IMG/VR virus record: IMGVR_UViG_3300021471_000007
Location: 11,249 to 75,248 of that record
Source: a virus
Direction: 5' to 3' (one strand)
Length of the DNA: 64,000 nt
Shown here one piece after another: positions 17,681 through 64,000 of this stretch (position 1 is the first letter of the stretch; the number at the start of each line of letters is the position of its first letter). The notes under the pieces are model-generated. The model did no database searches. It had not been told where the DNA came from and saw only the letters and a program-made list of their open reading frames with translations. Position numbers and translations under genes: made by a program.

Positions 17681-19471
17681 TTATAAACTCACGTGCACAT
17701 CTTTTTTGTCTCCAAAAAACTTGATCTTTGCGACTCCTTTTTTACCTGGTTTATATCCTTTCTTTTCTGCATATGTGCCTTCGTAATTTAAAAAGTGTCC
17801 AGTATTAATATAATATCTTTTGTGTTTTACAACCATTTTGTTTTTATAATCTATCTTTCTTAGTTCATCAGTCTGTAATGATAAATCATGAGTATGCCCC
17901 GAACAATTTCCTGTAATCGATACTTTTCCGTTTCTTCTTATTATTACTGTTCCATTAAATGTAGTTACATCCCACATTTTTTTGTCTTCCATCCTATGTT
18001 CTATTAAATTCTTTGACAATGCAAGTGTAACATCTTGTCTATTGCAAATTCCCAATGTATAATTAACTGTATTAGCAAAACCACTGATTCTTTGAAGTTT
18101 TCTTGTTCTATAACCAAATATGGTGCATGCTGCTTGTAATTTGTCTATTAATTTTTCGTTTGCCGAATAATATTCATAAACTCCATCATAGTGTTTGTGT
18201 CCATCTCCTGCAATCAAAGTTTCAAGGAATATATCAAATTGTCTTTTACTGAGCTTATTTATCCAATCTGGTATATCTTTTTCTGATATTAGCTCCCTTA
18301 TCTTTTCTCCTTGCTTTGCTTTTATATAAAACACCATGTCAAGTTTTTCTTTTCCTCTTATATAAATTGAAAAATCTAATTTTAATCTTTCTAATAGTGA
18401 TGTAATTTCATTGGCTTTTTCTCCTTTTCTTTGGTATATCATTATTGCCTTATGTGCTCCGTGTTCATTTTTAAAATGTCCTTCGCTTATGATCCACGCA
18501 ACTAATCGAATTTCATCATCAGACAAATCATAATCTTTATTATCCATAATTCCTGTTAGTGGAATTTTTATTTGTCCTTTTAATTTCGCTAATTCCTTTG
18601 CAGGCTTGATTAAATATTCACCTTTATATTTGTATATCATTCTTTGATTTGGGCTTAAACACTGACTAATTGAGGACATCTCTATATTATATGATTCTTT
18701 TTCTTCTGTTTCAATTTTGTTCAATACTACATCTTTTTCGATTTTGTTATTAATCAAATTAAGGTTAAGTATTATATCTCCAATGTTAACCTCGTCTTTT
18801 TTCTTCCAACCATCTGTTGTCAATATTTCTGTTTCTTCATCAAAACAATAGACGTCAGCATCGAATGATTCACCTAATCTTCTTATTGCTCTTAATTTTC
18901 CTTCTGGCGTCGATGCACCACTTGCACCATGTGTTACATACATCGAATAATTATTCTTTCCAACTCTTAATTTTATAAACCCAGCATATCCCATATATGG
19001 TACGCCGAGTTTACTTGCAAGCATCCTGGTTAAATCAAATCCTATTTCTTTGTAAGTCCTCTCTTCATGATTTCCTGTTAACAATGCAAGTATTTGTTTT
19101 CTTATTGGAGAAAGATATTCTACCATATTATCGAATTGATCTTCTGGAGACATGTCTTCATAAGTATTACTCACAGAATTCATAGTAGCATTATTTAAAT
19201 AATCACCCATTCCAATAACATAAGAACCAGATTTTTTAATATAATCCAAAGTGCCTTCGAACAATTTGACATCACAAGATCTTGCTCCGTAATGTATATC
19301 TCCCAGAGGTATTACCTTTATTTCTTTTTCCTTTGGAAAATCAAAACATTGTAATTTGCTTCTTTTTCTTAATCTAATTTCATCTAATTCTTCATTTAAC
19401 TGTCCAATAAATTTCATCAATTCACCCTTCTTCATCTTTTTTACATCTTTCATAACTTCATTTATATTCAT
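17681..19471 (-). CDS. calcineurin-like metallophosphoesterase containing an intein
   Basis: GDIHYG, GD, GNHE, THG, GHTH motifs; track start 19480. Confidence 0.9.
   Translation of the reverse strand: MNINEVMKDVKKMKKGELMKFIGQLNEELDEIRLRKRSKLQCFDFPKEKEIKVIPLGDIHYGARSCDVKLFEGTLDYIKKSGSYVIGMGDYLNNATMNSVSNTYEDMSPEDQFDNMVEYLSPIRKQILALLTGNHEERTYKEIGFDLTRMLASKLGVPYMGYAGFIKLRVGKNNYSMYVTHGASGASTPEGKLRAIRRLGESFDADVYCFDEETEILTTDGWKKKDEVNIGDIILNLNLINNKIEKDVVLNKIETEEKESYNIEMSSISQCLSPNQRMIYKYKGEYLIKPAKELAKLKGQIKIPLTGIMDNKDYDLSDDEIRLVAWIISEGHFKNEHGAHKAIMIYQRKGEKANEITSLLERLKLDFSIYIRGKEKLDMVFYIKAKQGEKIRELISEKDIPDWINKLSKRQFDIFLETLIAGDGHKHYDGVYEYYSANEKLIDKLQAACTIFGYRTRKLQRISGFANTVNYTLGICNRQDVTLALSKNLIEHRMEDKKMWDVTTFNGTVIIRRNGKVSITGNCSGHTHDLSLQTDELRKIDYKNKMVVKHKRYYINTGHFLNYEGTYAEKKGYKPGKKGVAKIKFFGDKKDVHVSL
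17906..18847 (-). mobile_element. intein (314 aa) with LAGLIDADG homing endonuclease
   Basis: Starts CFDEETEILTTDGW, ends IRRNGKVSITGN followed by Cys+1; LVAWIISEG and FLETLIAGDG blocks. Confidence 0.92.
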
Positions 19472-19571
19472 AAGTAGCACACCTTAAAATTTTATATATT
19501 CATCAGCTACTTACATCTATCTTCAAATTCAATAATGACGCCTCACATAACAATCATCGGCATTCAGTCAC

Positions 19572-53536: not shown

Positions 53537-53719
53537 TTATTTTTTCACCTCATTTTTCTTTTCAATATTAGTTTTTACTCCAACGCCCTTTATACGAGTT
53601 CGAGTAAACGATTCTTTTATGTTACCATTCTTATCCTTCAAAACTAACATCAATCCACCCCTTCCGTTCTTATCAAATTCGGGTTTTTTTAATACATCTT
53701 TATATATAACCATATTCAC
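53537..53719 (-). CDS. small hypothetical protein
   Basis: Coupled; LVLKDKNGNIK resembles the N-terminus of the next gene. Confidence 0.5.
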   Translation of the reverse strand: MNMVIYKDVLKKPEFDKNGRGGLMLVLKDKNGNIKESFTRTRIKGVGVKTNIEKKNEVKK

Positions 53720-56700
53720 ACCTTCTTTTTATCTATCCAATAAGGAAGATTACTCTGATCTTTTAATTTATAAAATAACCATACATGTCTATCTCCAATA
53801 TGTGCAATGCTAACCTCAAAACGACCTTCAATCGGAAGACTTCTTTTCGGGAAATCAGGAGATTCTCTCGGTCTTCGTGCTTCTTTCGGAGGATTAATTT
53901 TAAAATCATTAGAATGCATTAAAAATATCATACGATGATCCTCAATAACTTCTGGTAAATAAATACCATTATCTACAATTGTAAATATACCAGGAAAATG
54001 TTTTGTTGAACCTGGTGCACCGATTGGTGCTACGCCTTGTACTTTTAACCATGCTTTTGGTTGTATAAGCTTATCTACTGTATTGTATTTTTTATATGCT
54101 AATTTTTTCTTTGTAAATGGATTTGGTTGAGTTATATTTGCTGGTTCTGTTATTGTAAATCCCTGTAAATGATCACCAACATCCATTCTTAAATCAGTAT
54201 GGTTTGTTGCACCGCGTTCATGCCATTGCATAACAAATTTTCGTGGCACTCCACGTTCCATTACACGTTTAAAATCGTCCTGTTTTTGTTTTGGAAAAAC
54301 AGCAGGGGTTTGGTCTAATAAAAACTCTGGTCTCTTATCCCAGAATGGAGCAGATACAAATGCTTCAAGAACTTGATCTATCATTCCCATGTGTTTTGCA
54401 TCTTTTATGTCTTGTTCTAATGTATCACCGTATTCTACAATTGCAACTCCCAAAGCATCTACAGCTCTTTCCAATTCACGCCTGTTTGATGTACTGTGTA
54501 AATCCGGCCTCTTTGTATCAACACGTGGTTTGTGTATCGAATATCGTATACCGTTTTTATATTCGTGTCTCCAGACTTCCTGTACACTAATGTCTATTAT
54601 ATCACCTGGTGATGCATTGAGTTTAGTGTTAAATGTTTTTCCCAGTTTTAATATTGTTTTTCCATTAAGATGTACAATATACTTCTGAAGATATATATCA
54701 GGATTCTTAACATCAATGCCAACAGTATAATTATTAGCAGAACCGGCTTTATGTTTTTCTAATACTCTAACGTGTAGAGTCGTGAGCTTTCTGTATTTAA
54801 GCCATGTTGTACTGTCACCAGAAACGTATTTTGCGTCTGTTTCTTTTACAACAGCACCCTCACTCTCTTTTATCTTGCTAACTTGTTTTATATATTTAAG
54901 TGCATCTTTTGGGTTGTCTGCTTTGTATGATTTTATTTTCATAACAGTATCATTAAAATGTAACTTATCTAAATATTTTTTACGTTCTTCCAATGGCAAA
55001 TCCTTCAGGTTTTTGCCGTTATATCTTATTATATCCCATACAACTAATCTAATATTAGAATCATCTGGAGTTTCACCGCCCTTCTGTACAAACGGTAATA
55101 AGTTTATACGACTGCCCCATTTTCCATTGTCATACCATAACATTTCACCATCGATTCTGAAATCAGTGCCAAGCTTGCTCAAAGCAGATTTAAAATGATT
55201 AAGACTTTTTGATATATTGCTGCCATCTTCTGTTATAACTTGTACATCGCCATTAGCTTTGTCTACACTAATATGAAAACCATCCCATTTCCTTTCAACG
55301 TACCACGATTTTGCTTTTTTGAACATTGCATCAACAAGATCCTTCATATCATAATATGCGTTTGGGTTTGGTTTCTGTGGTCTCATTGCAGACATTTGTA
55401 CTACACGCGGCTCTCTCTTTTTAAGCACCAGATCATACAAAGGAACAAACGTATCGTGTGGACCCGGTTCATCACCCCATATGAAATGCAATTTTCCTGC
55501 TAATTCAGGATATTCCTCGTTTAGCATCTTTATCATTCTGGTTTCAACAGCACGTCTTATAAAACTTGTTGGTTCAGCCATTCTTATTAATACATCAATG
55601 TCGTTACCCAATCTATTATTTTCTATTGTACTACCAACTAATGATACAAATGAATCGTTAATAACTATATCTGTAAAACTATCTATAAAAGATATGTCCT
55701 GAGACATCTCTTCAGATTGTAAATGTGGAGGATTGGGCGTTAAAGGTGTGTTGTGTTGAAAGCCCCTTTTTTTCATTTCAGCAACCACAAACTTATGTGC
55801 ATTCCAAATGTCTTCCGCATTCCAACCGTTCTTCAATGAATAATCCTTTTTCTTCTTCAACGTAGAATACCATGCATGCAAAATCCTATGATCATCTATA
55901 AGAACCTTATCTGGTAAATCAGGTATTGATTTAATATAATCCTTGTATGGTTTATTTAACAGTTCTTCAATGAATCTGAATTCATTTAATATTATAAATT
56001 TTTCTTCTGGTAAAATTGCCTGTTTTGGTTCATCGTATGGAACAAAATCAAAATCAAACATATAACTTTCGCCAATTGTCTCGGGTTCATATAAAAATAT
56101 TGTTCCGTATGCATATTCATCATCAAACAAATACATTTCCTTGCCAACAAAGTCATCGAGTGTAGAAGGTAATATGAGTTCTTTTTGCTCACCGCTATAT
56201 ATTTTATTTGCATCTGCATTGTACAAACCATATGATAATTTCTTAGGCGTATCTAACAATTCATTTATGCTGACAGACAAACCATCAAATGCTATGTTAA
56301 ACTTTGAATCTATAGATTTAAGCTCTCTAACAGCATCTTTCCATCTTGGTACGTTTATACCTATATTAGTAAAAAATATAAGTTTGTTATTTAATTTTAA
56401 TAACTTTTTTTTGCTTTTTAAAATTGAGTTGTGTGTTTTGCTTTTGCCATCCCACAATGAACCATCCCATATAATGACATCTGCCTTTTCAATTAATTCT
56501 CTTGATTTCTGAGACATTGTTGATGAAGAAGGAGCCGATGTAAAAGGACAATAAAACACTGATCCTACATCATTTTTTAATATGAAACCAACATTTGGTA
56601 TTTTGTCTGGAGTATCAGAATAAGGCATTGTGACAGGAATTACTTTAAGATTTCCAATTTCATATTCTTTATATGGCTCGATAAATTTAAAATCAAAACT

Positions 56701-57057
56701 ATTTAATGCGTCCTTATCAAACATTTCTGATATTCTATTGTAAGTTTCCTTTTCTAAATAAACGTTTGTCTTTGCATCATCTTCTGCTAATTGATTTAAC
56801 CTTGCCAGACCACCAACTGTTTCATCTGATGCATGTGTAATTAGTATATTATTAATATTATCAATATTGTGAACCGCTATTTGCTTTTCAACATCTCTTG
56901 TAACATCTATTAATAAACATTCATCACTTATAAATAAAGAAGATTGTAATCTTTTGTCCCTCGAATACGCCCTTTCAGCGCTTTTAGATGCAGGTGTATT
57001 AGCACCTTCTCTCGGTATTCTACCAGCTGGACCAGTACCAATAAAAACTAAATTCAT
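53716..57057 (-). CDS. multidomain ATP-dependent DNA ligase (MBL-fold, ASCH-like, DenV-like, NTase, ligase+OB, LigD-type 3'-phosphoesterase)
   Basis: ERKWDG, IDGEM, VWDI, EGAVVK, WLKYRK; GS...DIDVLI; FVMQWH.....HTDLR. Confidence 0.85.
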   Translation of the reverse strand: MNLVFIGTGPAGRIPREGANTPASKSAERAYSRDKRLQSSLFISDECLLIDVTRDVEKQIAVHNIDNINNILITHASDETVGGLARLNQLAEDDAKTNVYLEKETYNRISEMFDKDALNSFDFKFIEPYKEYEIGNLKVIPVTMPYSDTPDKIPNVGFILKNDVGSVFYCPFTSAPSSSTMSQKSRELIEKADVIIWDGSLWDGKSKTHNSILKSKKKLLKLNNKLIFFTNIGINVPRWKDAVRELKSIDSKFNIAFDGLSVSINELLDTPKKLSYGLYNADANKIYSGEQKELILPSTLDDFVGKEMYLFDDEYAYGTIFLYEPETIGESYMFDFDFVPYDEPKQAILPEEKFIILNEFRFIEELLNKPYKDYIKSIPDLPDKVLIDDHRILHAWYSTLKKKKDYSLKNGWNAEDIWNAHKFVVAEMKKRGFQHNTPLTPNPPHLQSEEMSQDISFIDSFTDIVINDSFVSLVGSTIENNRLGNDIDVLIRMAEPTSFIRRAVETRMIKMLNEEYPELAGKLHFIWGDEPGPHDTFVPLYDLVLKKREPRVVQMSAMRPQKPNPNAYYDMKDLVDAMFKKAKSWYVERKWDGFHISVDKANGDVQVITEDGSNISKSLNHFKSALSKLGTDFRIDGEMLWYDNGKWGSRINLLPFVQKGGETPDDSNIRLVVWDIIRYNGKNLKDLPLEERKKYLDKLHFNDTVMKIKSYKADNPKDALKYIKQVSKIKESEGAVVKETDAKYVSGDSTTWLKYRKLTTLHVRVLEKHKAGSANNYTVGIDVKNPDIYLQKYIVHLNGKTILKLGKTFNTKLNASPGDIIDISVQEVWRHEYKNGIRYSIHKPRVDTKRPDLHSTSNRRELERAVDALGVAIVEYGDTLEQDIKDAKHMGMIDQVLEAFVSAPFWDKRPEFLLDQTPAVFPKQKQDDFKRVMERGVPRKFVMQWHERGATNHTDLRMDVGDHLQGFTITEPANITQPNPFTKKKLAYKKYNTVDKLIQPKAWLKVQGVAPIGAPGSTKHFPGIFTIVDNGIYLPEVIEDHRMIFLMHSNDFKINPPKEARRPRESPDFPKRSLPIEGRFEVSIAHIGDRHVWLFYKLKDQSNLPYWIDKKKV

Positions 57058-59762: not shown

Positions 59763-59781
59763 ATATATATTATATGTCAAT

Positions 59782-59830
59782 TAGGAATATAAAGATTACA
59801 GGAGCGATGAGGCATTAACTTTATATATAC
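59782..59830. promoter_or_regulatory. divergent promoter pair
   Basis: Minus TTTATATTCCTA 59782-59793 (TerL); plus TTTATATATA from ~59820 (ORF 59851). Confidence 0.7.
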
Positions 59831-59850
59831 AATTTAACAATATATAGTAT

Positions 59851-60120
59851 ATGAAAAAGAAAAAAACACTAGACAAATACAAAGAAAGACTCATAAAGGA
59901 AGCAAAATCGAATGCAAAACTATCGTATGAATATACACAAGAATTGTCTAATCTAACACAAAAATATGCATTACAAAAGCTGGATGCATGCTACATAATA
60001 ATGGCATTAGAAATAATGAAAATGCATGTGTATCAAAAAACACAACAAACACCAATTAGCGAAGAAGAATTAAAAAAGATGATTGACAACATTGTGCCAG
60101 ATACGAGCTATATAGGATGA
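59851..60120 (+). CDS. hypothetical protein
   Basis: First gene of the + operon, leaderless spacing. Confidence 0.6.
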   Translation: MKKKKTLDKYKERLIKEAKSNAKLSYEYTQELSNLTQKYALQKLDACYIIMALEIMKMHVYQKTQQTPISEEELKKMIDNIVPDTSYIG

Positions 60121-60441
60121 TATTATGGGATACATATATGTGATAACAACAAACAAAGAATTGGATGAGAATGCAATATTGAAAATATTGGAAACATTCC
60201 CACAAATAAAAATATTCGGAAAAATATCATCACTGTTTCAAGAGATGAGATAATGAAATCTTATGTATGTAAAATATGCAAAATGAAATTGTTAGATATT
60301 AATGTAGATCACATAAATGGAAAAGCACTTTGCCCAATATGTGGTCAAGAAATGGTAGAGTCTGATGAATAATAATGACGAGATTTTAGAAGAATTGAGA
60401 GAAATAAAAGAATTACTTAGAAAAATGTATGAGGTGTTGAA

Positions 60442-60834
60442 ATGCATTTAATTGATAGTATACAAAACAGACATGTACCAGAACATGTATATTTAACCAT
60501 GCTAATACCAGCAGGTTCAAAAAAAGATGACATACTAAAGATACTTGCAATGGAATTGGAATCAGCAAACAGGATACAAGATAAAGTAAAAAGGGATAGT
60601 ACGGTTCTTGCATTCTTGACATTGATAGAAAACTTAAAAGATATGGAAATACCACGTAATGGTGTAGCATTTTTTGTTGAAGCGTTTCAACACACAATAG
60701 TTCGCAATCAACATTTATGGAGATTTATACCGCCAAAACCAATAAAGAAACAATTATTATGGATAGCAGATGCAAAAGAGGGTTTTGCAACACATGAAAT
60801 AGATGAGTACTATGACAAAAATAGAAGAAATTGA
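60442..60834 (+). CDS. stand-alone aRF1/eRF1 domain 1 homolog
   Basis: LTMLIPAG....I...L..EL.SA.RIQDK..R......L...LK...IPRNGVAFF...IPPKPIK; SD GAGGTG. Confidence 0.75.
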   Translation: MHLIDSIQNRHVPEHVYLTMLIPAGSKKDDILKILAMELESANRIQDKVKRDSTVLAFLTLIENLKDMEIPRNGVAFFVEAFQHTIVRNQHLWRFIPPKPIKKQLLWIADAKEGFATHEIDEYYDKNRRN

Positions 60835-60998
60835 AAAAAGGCTTCGTAGAATCGAAGAGCGAATAGCTGTGCTAGAAGAACGTTGGATGGCATTTGGTTA
60901 TAGCATTTACATAGAAAGTGAAAGAAAACCACAATAACATGTTCAACTTATTGAACGTAATGTTTTTGAAGTGTAAAATTTTGTACTATGATGATAAT

Positions 60999-61238
60999 AT
61001 GGATGAAAATAAACTCAAACCTGAAATAATAGTATGGAAAGACGTTCTGAAGCAGACTAATAGTGATTTCAATGAAGAAAGAAATCCGGATTACTATTTG
61101 GAGGTAATGACAACAATCGGATGGATATACAAGGAAACAAAAAACACTTTACTTATGGTACAAGAATACGACAGTAGCGGAGCAAGAGATTGGATAGCAA
61201 TACCAAAGTGTTTGATAATAAAGAGAACGCGATTATGA
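60999..61238 (+). CDS. conserved phage hypothetical protein
   Basis: IVWKD...TTIGWI..E......IPKCLI; start refined. Confidence 0.55.
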   Translation: MDENKLKPEIIVWKDVLKQTNSDFNEERNPDYYLEVMTTIGWIYKETKNTLLMVQEYDSSGARDWIAIPKCLIIKRTRL

Positions 61239-61513
61239 AATATAATCATTTCTTATTGCAAAAAGACATTGCAGACATGCTGCGCATGGACAATTATTAT
61301 GTTCTCGAAAATATGGCATATCCCTCTTACAAAAATACCATTGGAGAAATAGATGTAATTGGTTTCAAGAATGGTATAGAATTGTGGGAAATAAAAACCC
61401 GCAAGAAATATATATCAAAAGCAATTAATCAGCTGCTTCGCGAAGAACGATATTTTGGAACACATTGCGAAAAATATATTTATGCTGAAGACACAATATA
61501 TTATTTATGGTGA
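61235..61513 (+). CDS. small PD-(D/E)XK nuclease-like protein
   Basis: GEIDVI...WEIKT....KAINQL. Confidence 0.65.
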   Translation: MKYNHFLLQKDIADMLRMDNYYVLENMAYPSYKNTIGEIDVIGFKNGIELWEIKTRKKYISKAINQLLREERYFGTHCEKYIYAEDTIYYLW

Positions 61514-61517
61514 TTAC

Positions 61518-62315
61518 ATGTGGATAAACAATTGGATAAAAGGAATAATAAAATTAGCCGAGTTTAAAAGAGATAATTCTGAGCTGTTTGACGAAGTTGT
61601 AAATTCGCCTATACCGCTAAAAGAATTTATTGAGATGGACGAAAAGAAGACAATAGAAAGCTTAAAAACACAAAATAACGCTCTCAAAATTGAGCTACAG
61701 AAATATTTACCGAATCCGAGTGAAGAATACTGGAATAATAAGTATCCAAAAACCAACATAAACTATTTAAGACACGAAATTGATGGAAACTATGAAGTCG
61801 ACGTCAGAGATTTCTTCCAGATTTATGATAATAGAATACCAACAGTCGCTGGCAACAAAGACGACACTAAAGCATTTAATGCTCTAATGTGGGTAAGAAA
61901 AAACATAGAATATGTGCCCGACAAAACAAATTATGGTTATCCCGAATATTGGGCATATCCATATCAGACACTTAAAAGAGGATCCGGGGATTGCGAAGAT
62001 GGTAGCATTCTGCTGGCTAACATTATGGTAAAATCTGGAATACCATATTGGAAAGTGCGACTTTGCGCCGCTGATGTTTATAATAGAAAAGGCGAATATC
62101 TCGGCGGGCACTGCTACGTTACTTATTATTATGAAGACGGCAACAGATGGGTGTCACTCGACTGGTGCTTTTACCCAAACTCTCTCACAATAGACAAAAG
62201 ACCCGATTATAAAGATGAGATGATATACGGAAACGGCAGAGTTTGGTTCAGCTGGAATATGAAATATGCATTCGCCAAGTCAACCGCCATAGACTTCAAA
62301 AACATAAAGAGGTGA
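61518..62315 (+). CDS. transglutaminase-like cysteine protease
   Basis: WVRKNIEY, TLKRGSGDCED (Cys), GHCY (His), LDW (Asp). Confidence 0.85.
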   Translation: MWINNWIKGIIKLAEFKRDNSELFDEVVNSPIPLKEFIEMDEKKTIESLKTQNNALKIELQKYLPNPSEEYWNNKYPKTNINYLRHEIDGNYEVDVRDFFQIYDNRIPTVAGNKDDTKAFNALMWVRKNIEYVPDKTNYGYPEYWAYPYQTLKRGSGDCEDGSILLANIMVKSGIPYWKVRLCAADVYNRKGEYLGGHCYVTYYYEDGNRWVSLDWCFYPNSLTIDKRPDYKDEMIYGNGRVWFSWNMKYAFAKSTAIDFKNIKR

Positions 62316-63838: not shown

Positions 63839-64000
63839 AGGTCGCTCTATTTGGTACCAAGCGGTAACAATTATTTTTTTTTTTGCGGCGCCAGACGGAA
63901 CGTTAGTTTAAGCGGCACCGCTGCGGAACGTAATTTAAAGGCCAAGCCGGCCATCCGGATAGGCGCTGCATGGAACAACGTGGCGCTGAATATGGAAAAC

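What the first reader, a model, noticed from the sequence alone, without database searches (positions are those of the whole stretch)
60442..60834. Viral stand-alone release-factor (aRF1) N-domain with all three stop-codon-reading motifs rewritten
Seen: the 130-aa ORF follows aRF1/eRF1 domain 1 end to end (LT.LIP, helix hairpin, P.NG..FF, PPKPI). The GTS loop reads PEH, NIKS reads RIQD and YxCxxxF reads WIADAKEGF. There is no GGQ middle domain or C domain. Known: domain 1 decodes stop codons in the A site and GGQ hydrolyses peptidyl-tRNA. Inference: a captured host factor turned into a ribosome A-site decoy (termination inhibitor, readthrough promoter, host shut-off or anti-defence factor). 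It lies near the start of the + strand operon.
Basis: partly seen in the sequence, partly recalled or inferred. Interest (0 to 1): 0.85.

Follow-up and report, generated by a model that had tools for sequence, protein, structure and literature searches.

The report
Archaeal virus stand-alone release-factor decoding domain
A tailed virus of archaea from hydrothermal-vent samples carries a small, conserved gene for only the stop-codon-reading domain of the host-type translation termination factor, without the catalytic part, so it may interfere with termination on host ribosomes, though this is untested.

Summary
ORF 60442-60834 (+, 130 aa) is a real, stand-alone homolog of domain 1 (N domain) of aRF1/eRF1.

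Evidence for identity:
- The protein alone misses Pfam and hits PDB only weakly. A profile of the three tailed-virus members hits the eRF1 N domain at E=1e-9, or 8e-20 with a fourth member.
- An MSA-based AlphaFold model (pLDDT 87) matches aRF1/eRF1 N domains at Z=17 over about 120 residues.
- The protein ends exactly at the domain 1/2 boundary. No M or C domain is found on the 75-kb contig.

Context: the virus has archaeal-type RNase HII, PriX and a TATA-type promoter. The gene is fifth in the non-structural operon divergent from the terminase. It is syntenic in a second virus, where it is only 36% identical while its neighbours are 51-77% identical. It stays open, with codon positions 1+2 better conserved than position 3.

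Motifs: in this copy all three decoding motifs have diverged (PEHV, RIQD, LWIADAKEGF). Sister copies keep YxCxxxF.

Function: an A-site decoy is plausible, because the isolated human N domain occupies the A site in vitro, but it is untested. The donor and host lineages are unresolved. A giant-virus stand-alone N domain arose independently. I rate this a new variant of a known kind.

The parts
60442..60834 (+). 130-aa ORF encoding a stand-alone aRF1/eRF1 domain-1 (N-domain) homolog; stop codon TGA
60431..60436 (+). Shine-Dalgarno-like GAGGTG, 5 nt before the ATG; the syntenic gene in L011 has GAGGTT
60478..60489 (+). Loop at the GTS position: P13-E14-H15-V16. P-[ED]-H is shared by all three tailed-virus members
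60553..60555 (+). E38, aligned with human eRF1 E55; invariant in the viral family
60571..60582 (+). Tip of the helical hairpin at the NIKS position: R44-I45-Q46-D47. Not conserved within the family (GMKP, GMKT in the sisters)
60757..60786 (+). Degenerate YxCxxxF position: LWIADAKEGF with a 3-residue insertion. Sisters read YWCDDKF and YWVDDKF
   Evidence: sequence confirmed by run X2
59820..59827 (+). TTTATATA box 24-31 nt upstream of the first ATG of the + strand block (59851); a putative archaeal TATA box for a leaderless operon transcript (inference)
59851..60372 (+). Three small upstream ORFs of the same operon (89 aa, 42 aa, and a 39-aa CxxC...CxxC zinc ribbon), conserved in the same order in L011/L001 at 51-71% identity
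60803..60937 (+). 44-aa coiled-coil ORF overlapping the 3' end of the N-domain gene; 62% identical and adjacent in L011/L001
58314..59780 (-). Terminase large subunit, first gene of the divergent structural block; the synteny anchor (70% identical in L011)

Best explanation
Shown: this is a selectively maintained viral gene. Its product is only the decoding (N) domain of the archaeal/eukaryotic class-I release factor. It is encoded in the non-structural operon of an archaeal tailed virus, and it has no GGQ catalytic domain and no C domain for binding the delivery GTPase. Inferred: the protein enters the decoding centre of the host ribosome's A site as the N domain of aRF1 does. Because it cannot hydrolyse peptidyl-tRNA, it competes with host aRF1. 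That would delay termination or favour readthrough, or more generally block the A site. Its NIKS and YxCxxxF equivalents have diverged, so its codon preference is probably altered or relaxed. Its unusually fast divergence fits a protein that acts on the host.
For: Homology: family profiles hit solved eRF1/aRF1 N domains at E=8e-20 and, using tailed-virus members only, at 1.2e-9. Fold: model pLDDT 86.6; Foldseek's top 24 hits are all eRF1/aRF1 N domains at TM 0.74-0.82; VIA-align gives Z=17.1, rmsd 2.0 A, 119 residues to A. pernix aRF1, with Balon next at Z 8-11 and everything else at Z<=4. Clean excision at the domain boundary, and no M or C domain on the contig. Selection: the ORF is open in three diverged members; 0 of 100,000 shuffles stay open; codon positions 1+2 are 59% identical against 38% for position 3 between the two viral lineages. 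Synteny is conserved, yet the gene is 36% identical against 51-77% for its neighbours. E38 (human E55), I45 (I62) and R51 (R68) are retained. Archaeal host: RNase HII and PriX best hits are archaeal. Published precedent: the isolated human N domain (residues 1-145) induces the stop-codon-specific toe-print shift and protects A-site mRNA from RelE (PMC3632111). The N domain stays static on the stop codon throughout termination (PMC5119991).
Against: Nothing here shows ribosome binding. The residues that read the stop codon in eRF1 (N61, K63, Y125, C127, T32) are replaced in this copy, and the hairpin tip is not conserved even within the family. Stop-codon-specific binding is therefore doubtful. 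In the published assay the isolated N domain gave a lower yield than full-length eRF1 (PMC3632111). Without a C domain it cannot be delivered by aEF1-alpha. The virus uses all three stop codons as terminators and shows no recoding or suppressor tRNA, so no viral need for readthrough is evident. The family is very small, with three distinct sequences.
Confidence: 0.4

Rival explanations
1. Neofunctionalised scaffold. The N-domain fold was kept, but the protein now binds a non-ribosomal target such as a host defence or regulatory protein, or an RNA. It would act as a typical fast-evolving early host-takeover or anti-defence protein unrelated to termination.
For: All canonical decoding motifs have diverged in the window copy and the NIKS tip varies within the family. 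Family-specific conserved positions lie elsewhere: P13, H15, Y17, FVEAFxH, R88-N89, W93, W107, D110. It is the fastest-diverging gene of the syntenic block. The window copy has the longest branch in the tree.
Against: E38 (E55) and basic residues after the hairpin tip are retained. P0002 keeps an intact YxCxxxF. The whole domain, rather than a sub-fragment, is conserved with a confident eRF1-like model. No alternative partner is suggested by any data.
Confidence: 0.3
2. A-site shield. The domain sits on A-site codons to protect viral or host mRNA from ribosome-dependent mRNA interferases (RelE-type toxins) triggered by infection. It would be an anti-abortive-infection factor and not a termination modulator.
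For: In vitro, the isolated human N domain bound at a stop codon makes mRNA a poor RelE substrate (PMC3632111). The early-operon position and rapid divergence are typical of counter-defence genes.
Against: Purely inferential. No toxin-antitoxin or defence context was examined or found. The host is unknown. It shares every weakness of the A-site binding hypothesis.
Confidence: 0.08
3. Non-functional remnant. It is a fragment of a captured aRF1 gene drifting under relaxed constraint.
For: Very long branch and loss of all three motifs in the window copy. Very few relatives.
Against: Intact ORFs with SD sites exist in diverged syntenic viruses. 0 of 100,000 shuffles stay open. Positions 1+2 are more conserved than position 3. 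The core fold residues are invariant and the model is confident. Truncation is precise at the domain boundary in all members.
Confidence: 0.07
4. Split release factor. The viral N domain pairs in trans with an M-C module, either host aRF1 or an undiscovered viral protein on the missing ~27% of the genome, and forms a release factor with altered stop-codon specificity.
For: The contig is estimated at only 73% complete. Giant viruses do encode their own eRF1, so viral control of termination has precedent (PMC3521657, PMC6582330).
Against: No eRF1_2 or eRF1_3 match on 75 kb or in the 20-kb syntenic locus L011. In the published assay, adding M or MC domains in trans did not change the effect of the isolated N domain. 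No recoding is seen in the virus.
Confidence: 0.05

Closest known systems
N domain (domain 1, Pfam eRF1_1 PF03463) of archaeal aRF1 / eukaryotic eRF1; e.g. Aeropyrum pernix aRF1 (PDB 3AGK, 3VMF) and human eRF1 (1DT9, 2LLX)
   Same: Same fold over the whole domain (Z=17, rmsd 2.0-3.1 A, 119-124 residues). Significant profile homology. Shared core motifs IP, PxNG, PPxPI and the terminal F. E55 equivalent retained.
   Different: It stands alone, with no M (GGQ) or C domain. The NIKS, YxCxxxF and GTS equivalents have diverged in this copy. It is encoded by a virus. The single sequence does not reach Pfam's threshold.
Isolated recombinant human eRF1 N domain (residues 1-145) studied by Kryuchkova et al. 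2013 (PMC3632111)
   Same: Same domain boundaries (the viral protein corresponds to about residues 18-146). This shows that such a fragment can occupy the A site without M and C.
   Different: The recombinant fragment has intact decoding motifs and is stop-codon specific. The viral protein has diverged motifs and is a natural gene. Binding of the viral protein is untested.
Giant-virus eRF1 genes (Mimivirus R726 / Megavirus mg280; Marseilleviridae eRF1) and short giant-virus eRF1_1-only proteins such as P0003 in L012
   Same: Virus-encoded members of the aeRF1 family. P0003 is also a stand-alone N domain of 128 aa. Substitutions in GTS/TASNIKS are also reported for mimivirus eRF1s (PMC6582330).
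   Different: The giant-virus proteins are eukaryote-type and mostly full length with GGQ. P0003 sits beside, and is 54-57% identical to, a full-length recoded eRF1, so it is a tandem partial duplicate. It does not group with the tailed-virus clade in the tree. The window gene is in a Caudoviricetes-type archaeal virus with no full-length partner.
Balon / baeRF-1 family (bacterial aeRF1-like ribosome hibernation factors; PDB 8V9J, 8RD8) and the stand-alone RF-PH domains of Burroughs and Aravind 2019 (PMC6514570)
   Same: aeRF1-superfamily proteins with degenerate decoding motifs that occupy the A site without terminating. The Balon N domain is the next-best structural match (Z 8-11).
   Different: Balon keeps all three domains and is cellular and bacterial. 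The stand-alone forms described in 2019 are the catalytic middle domain, not the N domain.

Membership tests
aRF1/eRF1 domain 1 (eRF1_1, PF03463) homologous superfamily | Significant sequence-profile match to eRF1 domain 1 over most of the domain | tested here: met
   The single sequence gives no Pfam hit and phmmer vs PDB gives E=0.016. The family profile A3 gives 1.2e-9 and A1 gives 8e-20, covering human residues 20-140. A3 finds the aRF1 of 278 of 301 Asgard genomes. A precomputed PF03463 tag is shown.
aRF1/eRF1 domain 1 (eRF1_1, PF03463) homologous superfamily | Beta-sheet core plus long alpha2-alpha3 helical hairpin fold | tested here: met
   The model has pLDDT 86.6 and pTM 0.81 from a 4-sequence MSA. 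Foldseek TM is 0.74-0.82. VIA-align Z is 17.1. Caveat: this is a predicted model from a shallow alignment.
Stop-codon-decoding N domain (functional sense) | NIKS-type loop at the hairpin tip (N61, K63) | tested here: not met
   It reads R44-I45-Q46-D47. The sisters read GMKP and GMKT with a 1-residue insertion.
Stop-codon-decoding N domain (functional sense) | YxCxxxF motif (Y125, C127) | tested here: not met
   The window copy reads LWIADAKEGF with a 3-residue insertion. The motif is met in sister P0002 (YWCDDKF) and partly in P0004 (YWVDDKF).
Stop-codon-decoding N domain (functional sense) | GTS/GTx loop | tested here: not met
   It reads E14-H15-V16 after P13. The tripeptide is also absent from the archaeal aRF1s aligned here (Thor HSS, Bathy GLE), so this feature is weakly diagnostic for archaea.
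Stop-codon-decoding N domain (functional sense) | Glutamate equivalent to human E55 | tested here: met
   E38 is invariant in all four viral sequences.
Class-I release factor aRF1/eRF1 (the enzyme) | Middle domain with the catalytic GGQ loop | tested here: not met
   The ORF ends at the domain 1/2 boundary. PF03464 finds nothing on the contig at E<=10.
Class-I release factor aRF1/eRF1 (the enzyme) | C domain that binds aEF1-alpha/eRF3 | tested here: not met
   PF03465 finds nothing on the contig at E<=10.
Class-I release factor aRF1/eRF1 (the enzyme) | Binding to the ribosomal A site at stop codons | not testable with these tools
   This needs ribosome binding or toe-print assays. The only precedent is the human isolated N domain (PMC3632111).
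Balon / baeRF-1 hibernation factors | Three-domain aeRF1-like architecture in a cellular (bacterial) genome | tested here: not met
   It is a single domain encoded by a virus. The Balon N domain matches only at Z 8-11 and 8-12% identity.

The most novel reading that the evidence does not exclude
An archaeal virus deploys a catalytically dead mimic of its host release factor's decoding domain as a ribosomal A-site decoy. It would reprogram or block translation termination, or shield A-site mRNA from host toxins, during infection. This would be the first protein-level viral antagonist of termination in Archaea. The strategy would have arisen independently of the stand-alone N domains of giant viruses.
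Probability: 0.35. Interest if true: 0.8.

Novelty: new variant of a known kind. Interest (0 to 1): 0.6.

Why it matters
Viruses are known to carry whole translation factors, such as giant-virus eRF1 and phage RF1/RF2 in recoded phages. A natural gene consisting only of the release factor's codon-reading domain has not been described in the papers I could search, and none for an archaeal tailed virus. In-vitro work already shows that such a fragment can sit in the A site without releasing the peptide. The gene is therefore a ready-made, testable candidate for a viral termination inhibitor or readthrough promoter in Archaea, where virus-host conflict at the ribosome is almost unexplored. The sister copies run from an intact YxCxxxF to a fully degenerate one, giving a natural series for asking which N-domain elements are needed for A-site binding as opposed to stop-codon reading.

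Tried and rejected
1. Pfam and PHROGs on the single protein gave no usable hit. P0002 and P0004 also miss Pfam individually.
2. Single-sequence AlphaFold gave a poor all-helical model (pLDDT 61) and was discarded.
3. The search for homologous proteins with lengths 'longer' returned nothing because the candidate list was crowded by chance words. This is not evidence about fused forms.
The context of P0004 and of the other 24 contigs of P0003 could not be seen.
5. Host identification failed. Terminase-profile searches of 301 Asgard and 301 Thermoproteota genomes gave only weak matches, 1 and 7 genomes at 57-104 bits. The cultured-phage search gave at most 26% identity. Other archaeal phyla, including DPANN, could not be reached with the available handles.
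6. Donor lineage: the A3 profile scores Asgard, Bathyarchaeota-like and giant-virus N domains similarly, and the tree leaves the viral clade on a long unplaced stem.
7. Microdiversity for dN/dS: the contigs laid from four runs were short and identical where they covered the ORF.
8. No RNA holder was listed among the sequencing runs. Contigs from the probable source run covered almost none of the stretch.
9. Recoding hypothesis rejected: all three stops are used (TAA 50, TGA 48, TAG 13), there are no tRNAs, and ORFs are long under the standard code.
10. More distant terminase relatives (L025-L027) have too little flanking DNA and show no N-domain gene. Further viral scans returned only L001.
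11. The count of AAAATTGA in L012 is not above chance. The giant-virus attribution rests on other features.
12. Complex prediction was not used. No specific protein partner is claimed, and neighbourhood alone was not sufficient reason.

Full report
OBSERVATION

A GAGGTG Shine-Dalgarno lies 5 nt upstream. The window is bases 11249-75248 of a 75,248-bp IMG/VR virus record estimated at 73% complete.

On its own the protein is a weak query. Pfam finds nothing. PHROGs gives only chance-level hits. phmmer against PDB gives E=0.016. Even so, the top 20 PDB hits are all aRF1/eRF1 and all align in register with domain 1.

HOMOLOGY

An exhaustive phmmer of 1.8 billion representatives found only two relatives, P0002 (122 aa, 39% identity, E=8e-16) and P0003 (128 aa, 33%, E=1e-5). 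A profile search added P0004 (124 aa). All four are domain-sized.

- The profile of P0001, P0002 and P0003 hits solved eRF1 N domains at E=8e-20 over human residues 20-139.
- The profile of the three tailed-virus members alone (A3) gives E=1.2e-9 to human eRF1 and 3.6e-8 to A. pernix aRF1.
- A3 also finds the full-length aRF1 of 278 of 301 sampled Asgard genomes.
- With a four-sequence MSA, AlphaFold2 gives pLDDT 86.6 and pTM 0.81, with a beta sheet plus a long helical hairpin.
- Foldseek's top 24 PDB matches are all eRF1/aRF1 N domains, TM 0.74-0.82.
- VIA-align gives Z=17.1, rmsd 2.0 A, 119 residues to A. pernix aRF1 and Z about 17 to human eRF1. The Balon N domain follows at Z 8-11, and nothing else exceeds Z 4.

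Homology and fold are therefore secure. The caveat is that the model rests on a shallow alignment.

ARCHITECTURE AND MOTIFS

Aligned with cellular aRF1s, the viral proteins stop precisely where domain 2 begins. PF03464 (eRF1_2) and PF03465 (eRF1_3) find nothing anywhere on the contig at E<=10. The contig holds a single N-domain copy.

In the window copy:
- The GTS position reads E14-H15-V16, with P13 before it.
- NIKS reads R44-I45-Q46-D47.
- YxCxxxF reads LWIADAKEGF, with a 3-residue insertion.
- E38 (human E55), I45 (I62) and R51 (R68) are kept.

P0002 has YWCDDKF and P0004 has YWVDDKF. The hairpin tip is not conserved within the family (GMKP, GMKT). The loop P-[ED]-H-x-Y and the strand FVEAFxH..RN...W are family-specific and conserved. 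The GTS tripeptide is also absent from the archaeal aRF1s aligned here.

Contigs of another run reproduce 60240-60614 and 60717-61124 without a difference, so the odd motifs are not assembly errors.

THE VIRUS AND THE GENE'S CONTEXT

The contig encodes a terminase, a portal and an HK97-type capsid protein, so it is a tailed virus. Several features point to an archaeal host:
- Its RNase HII matches archaeal enzymes best (E about 1e-28), followed by eukaryotic H2A.
- A primase-like protein matches Sulfolobus PriX.
- The divergent region between the terminase and the + strand block has a TTTATATA box 24-31 nt before the first ATG, consistent with an archaeal leaderless promoter. This is an inference.

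Runs holding the sequence are labelled hydrothermal-vent, marine and sediment metagenomes.

The gene is the fifth ORF of the + strand block that begins at 59851. Because the contig ends at window base 64000, that block probably continues into the replication genes at the contig's other end.

A second virus (L011 and L001, 24.9 and 9.5 kb) has the same order: terminase, three small ORFs including a CxxC zinc ribbon, the N-domain gene, and a 44-46-aa coiled-coil ORF overlapping its end.

SELECTION

Between the two viruses the neighbours are 51-77% identical (terminase 70%, portal 67%, small flanking ORFs 51-71%). The N-domain protein is only 36% identical, the lowest in the block.

It is nevertheless under constraint:
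- Intact ORFs with SD sites are present in both viruses.
- 0 of 100,000 shuffles of either ORF stay open.
- Codon positions 1+2 are 59% identical, against 38% for position 3.

In a maximum-likelihood tree the three tailed-virus proteins form one clade (support 97/98) on a long stem. The window copy has the longest terminal branch, 1.35 against about 0.2 for its sisters.

ORIGIN

No stand-alone copy was found in the 301 Asgard genomes searched, and no cellular aRF1 stands out as donor (best 62 bits). Terminase relatives in Asgard and Thermoproteota genomes are weak. Donor and host lineage are unresolved. DPANN and euryarchaeal phyla could not be sampled.

P0003 is a separate case. Its contig L012 is very AT-rich and its genes lack SD sites. 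The solo N domain lies about 100 nt upstream of a full-length eRF1 with an eRF1_2 domain and GGQ. That gene is split at a T-run followed by TGA, which resembles the recoding described for Mimivirus and Megavirus eRF1 (PMC3521657). P0003 is 54-57% identical to that neighbour and does not join the tailed-virus clade. BFVD and the ESM Atlas also list short eRF1_1-only proteins in Nucleocytoviricota. Solo N domains therefore seem to have arisen at least twice in viruses.

MECHANISM

What is shown is identity, architecture, context and constraint. The rest is inference. The most economical reading is that the protein goes where the N domain goes, the decoding centre of the A site. Without GGQ and a C domain it could only compete with aRF1.

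Published work makes this physically plausible. The isolated human N domain (residues 1-145) induces the stop-codon-specific toe-print shift and shields A-site mRNA from RelE, at a lower yield than full-length eRF1 (PMC3632111). The N domain stays fixed on the stop codon throughout termination (PMC5119991). Balon shows that aeRF1-like proteins with degenerate motifs can occupy the A site without terminating.

Against a stop-codon-specific decoy:
- The stop-reading residues are replaced here, and the hairpin tip varies within the family.
- The virus uses all three stops (TAA 50, TGA 48, TAG 13), has no tRNAs and shows no recoding. No viral need for readthrough is visible.

I put about 0.4 on an A-site competitor, 0.3 on a non-ribosomal neofunctionalised binder, and small weights on an anti-RelE shield, a decaying remnant and a split factor.

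COMPARISON AND NOVELTY

It is a member of the eRF1 domain-1 superfamily by sequence profile and fold. It is not a release factor, since it has no M or C domain, and it fails the NIKS, YxCxxxF and GTS features.

The closest described things are:
- the recombinant N domain used in vitro;
- giant-virus eRF1 genes and their N fragments;
- Balon and the baeRF proteins.

The 2019 survey of the superfamily describes stand-alone catalytic domains, not N domains, and no viral ones. A survey of archaeal tailed viruses lists Trm112 and L21e but no release-factor homolog. Further searches of the paper library found no report of such a gene. Databases already tag these proteins with PF03463, and one is named 'peptide chain release factor subunit 1' by JGI. 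The domain assignment is therefore not new. The stand-alone form in an archaeal tailed virus and its divergence pattern are new. My verdict is a new variant of a known kind, of moderate to high interest, with function open.

Noticed in passing
L012:294-1818: An AT-rich contig, probably from a giant virus, carries a stand-alone eRF1 N domain (P0003, 294-680). About 100 nt downstream is a full-length eRF1 with eRF1_2/GGQ whose frame breaks at a T-run followed by TGA near 1036-1046. This resembles the frameshift autoregulation reported for Mimivirus R726. The two N domains are 54-57% identical, so this looks like a tandem partial duplication. AAAATTGA lies 50-90 nt upstream of both ATGs, but its count is not above chance.
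   Followed up: partly
window 53716-57057 (-): A 1113-aa protein directly after the portal gene combines a metallo-beta-lactamase-fold domain with an ATP-dependent DNA/RNA ligase domain (Pfam). Its counterpart in L011 is shorter (690 aa) and only 47% identical.
   Followed up: no
window 59781-59850: The 70-bp divergent region between the terminase and the + strand block holds TTTATATA 24-31 nt before the + strand ATG. A TATA-like TTTATATT lies on the other strand about 25-30 nt before the likely terminase ATG (59762). This suggests back-to-back archaeal promoters with leaderless transcripts.
   Followed up: partly
window 61455-62315 (+): A transglutaminase-core cysteine-protease-like protein (286 aa) lies in the same non-structural operon, about 600 nt downstream of the N-domain gene. 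It has no PHROG match. It could be a cell-wall or protein-modifying enzyme.
   Followed up: no
G002 (genome of L009); also L013, L014, L017: One Bathyarchaeota genome holds three full-length aRF1-like genes of 424-436 aa. The group represented by L009, L013 and L014 lacks NIKS (reading e.g. SAVTKS) and has YEVDDHF in place of YxCxxxF. Divergent decoding motifs therefore also occur in cellular paralogs.
   Followed up: no
window 60253-60372 and 60803-60937 (+): A 39-aa CxxC...CxxC zinc-ribbon ORF and a 44-aa coiled-coil ORF (...RIAVLEERWMAFGY...) flank the N-domain gene. Both are conserved in the same positions in L011/L001 at 66% and 62% identity. The coiled-coil ORF overlaps the 3' end of the N-domain gene in both viruses.
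   Followed up: partly
whole contig (L020 + window): TGA is used as often as TAA (48 against 50 of 111 heuristic gene calls) despite 33% GC. It accounts for 31 of 57 + strand stops.
   Followed up: no
window 17681-19480 (-): A 599-aa ORF with a LAGLIDADG homing-endonuclease-like domain lies at the junction between the + strand replication block and the - strand structural block.
   Followed up: no
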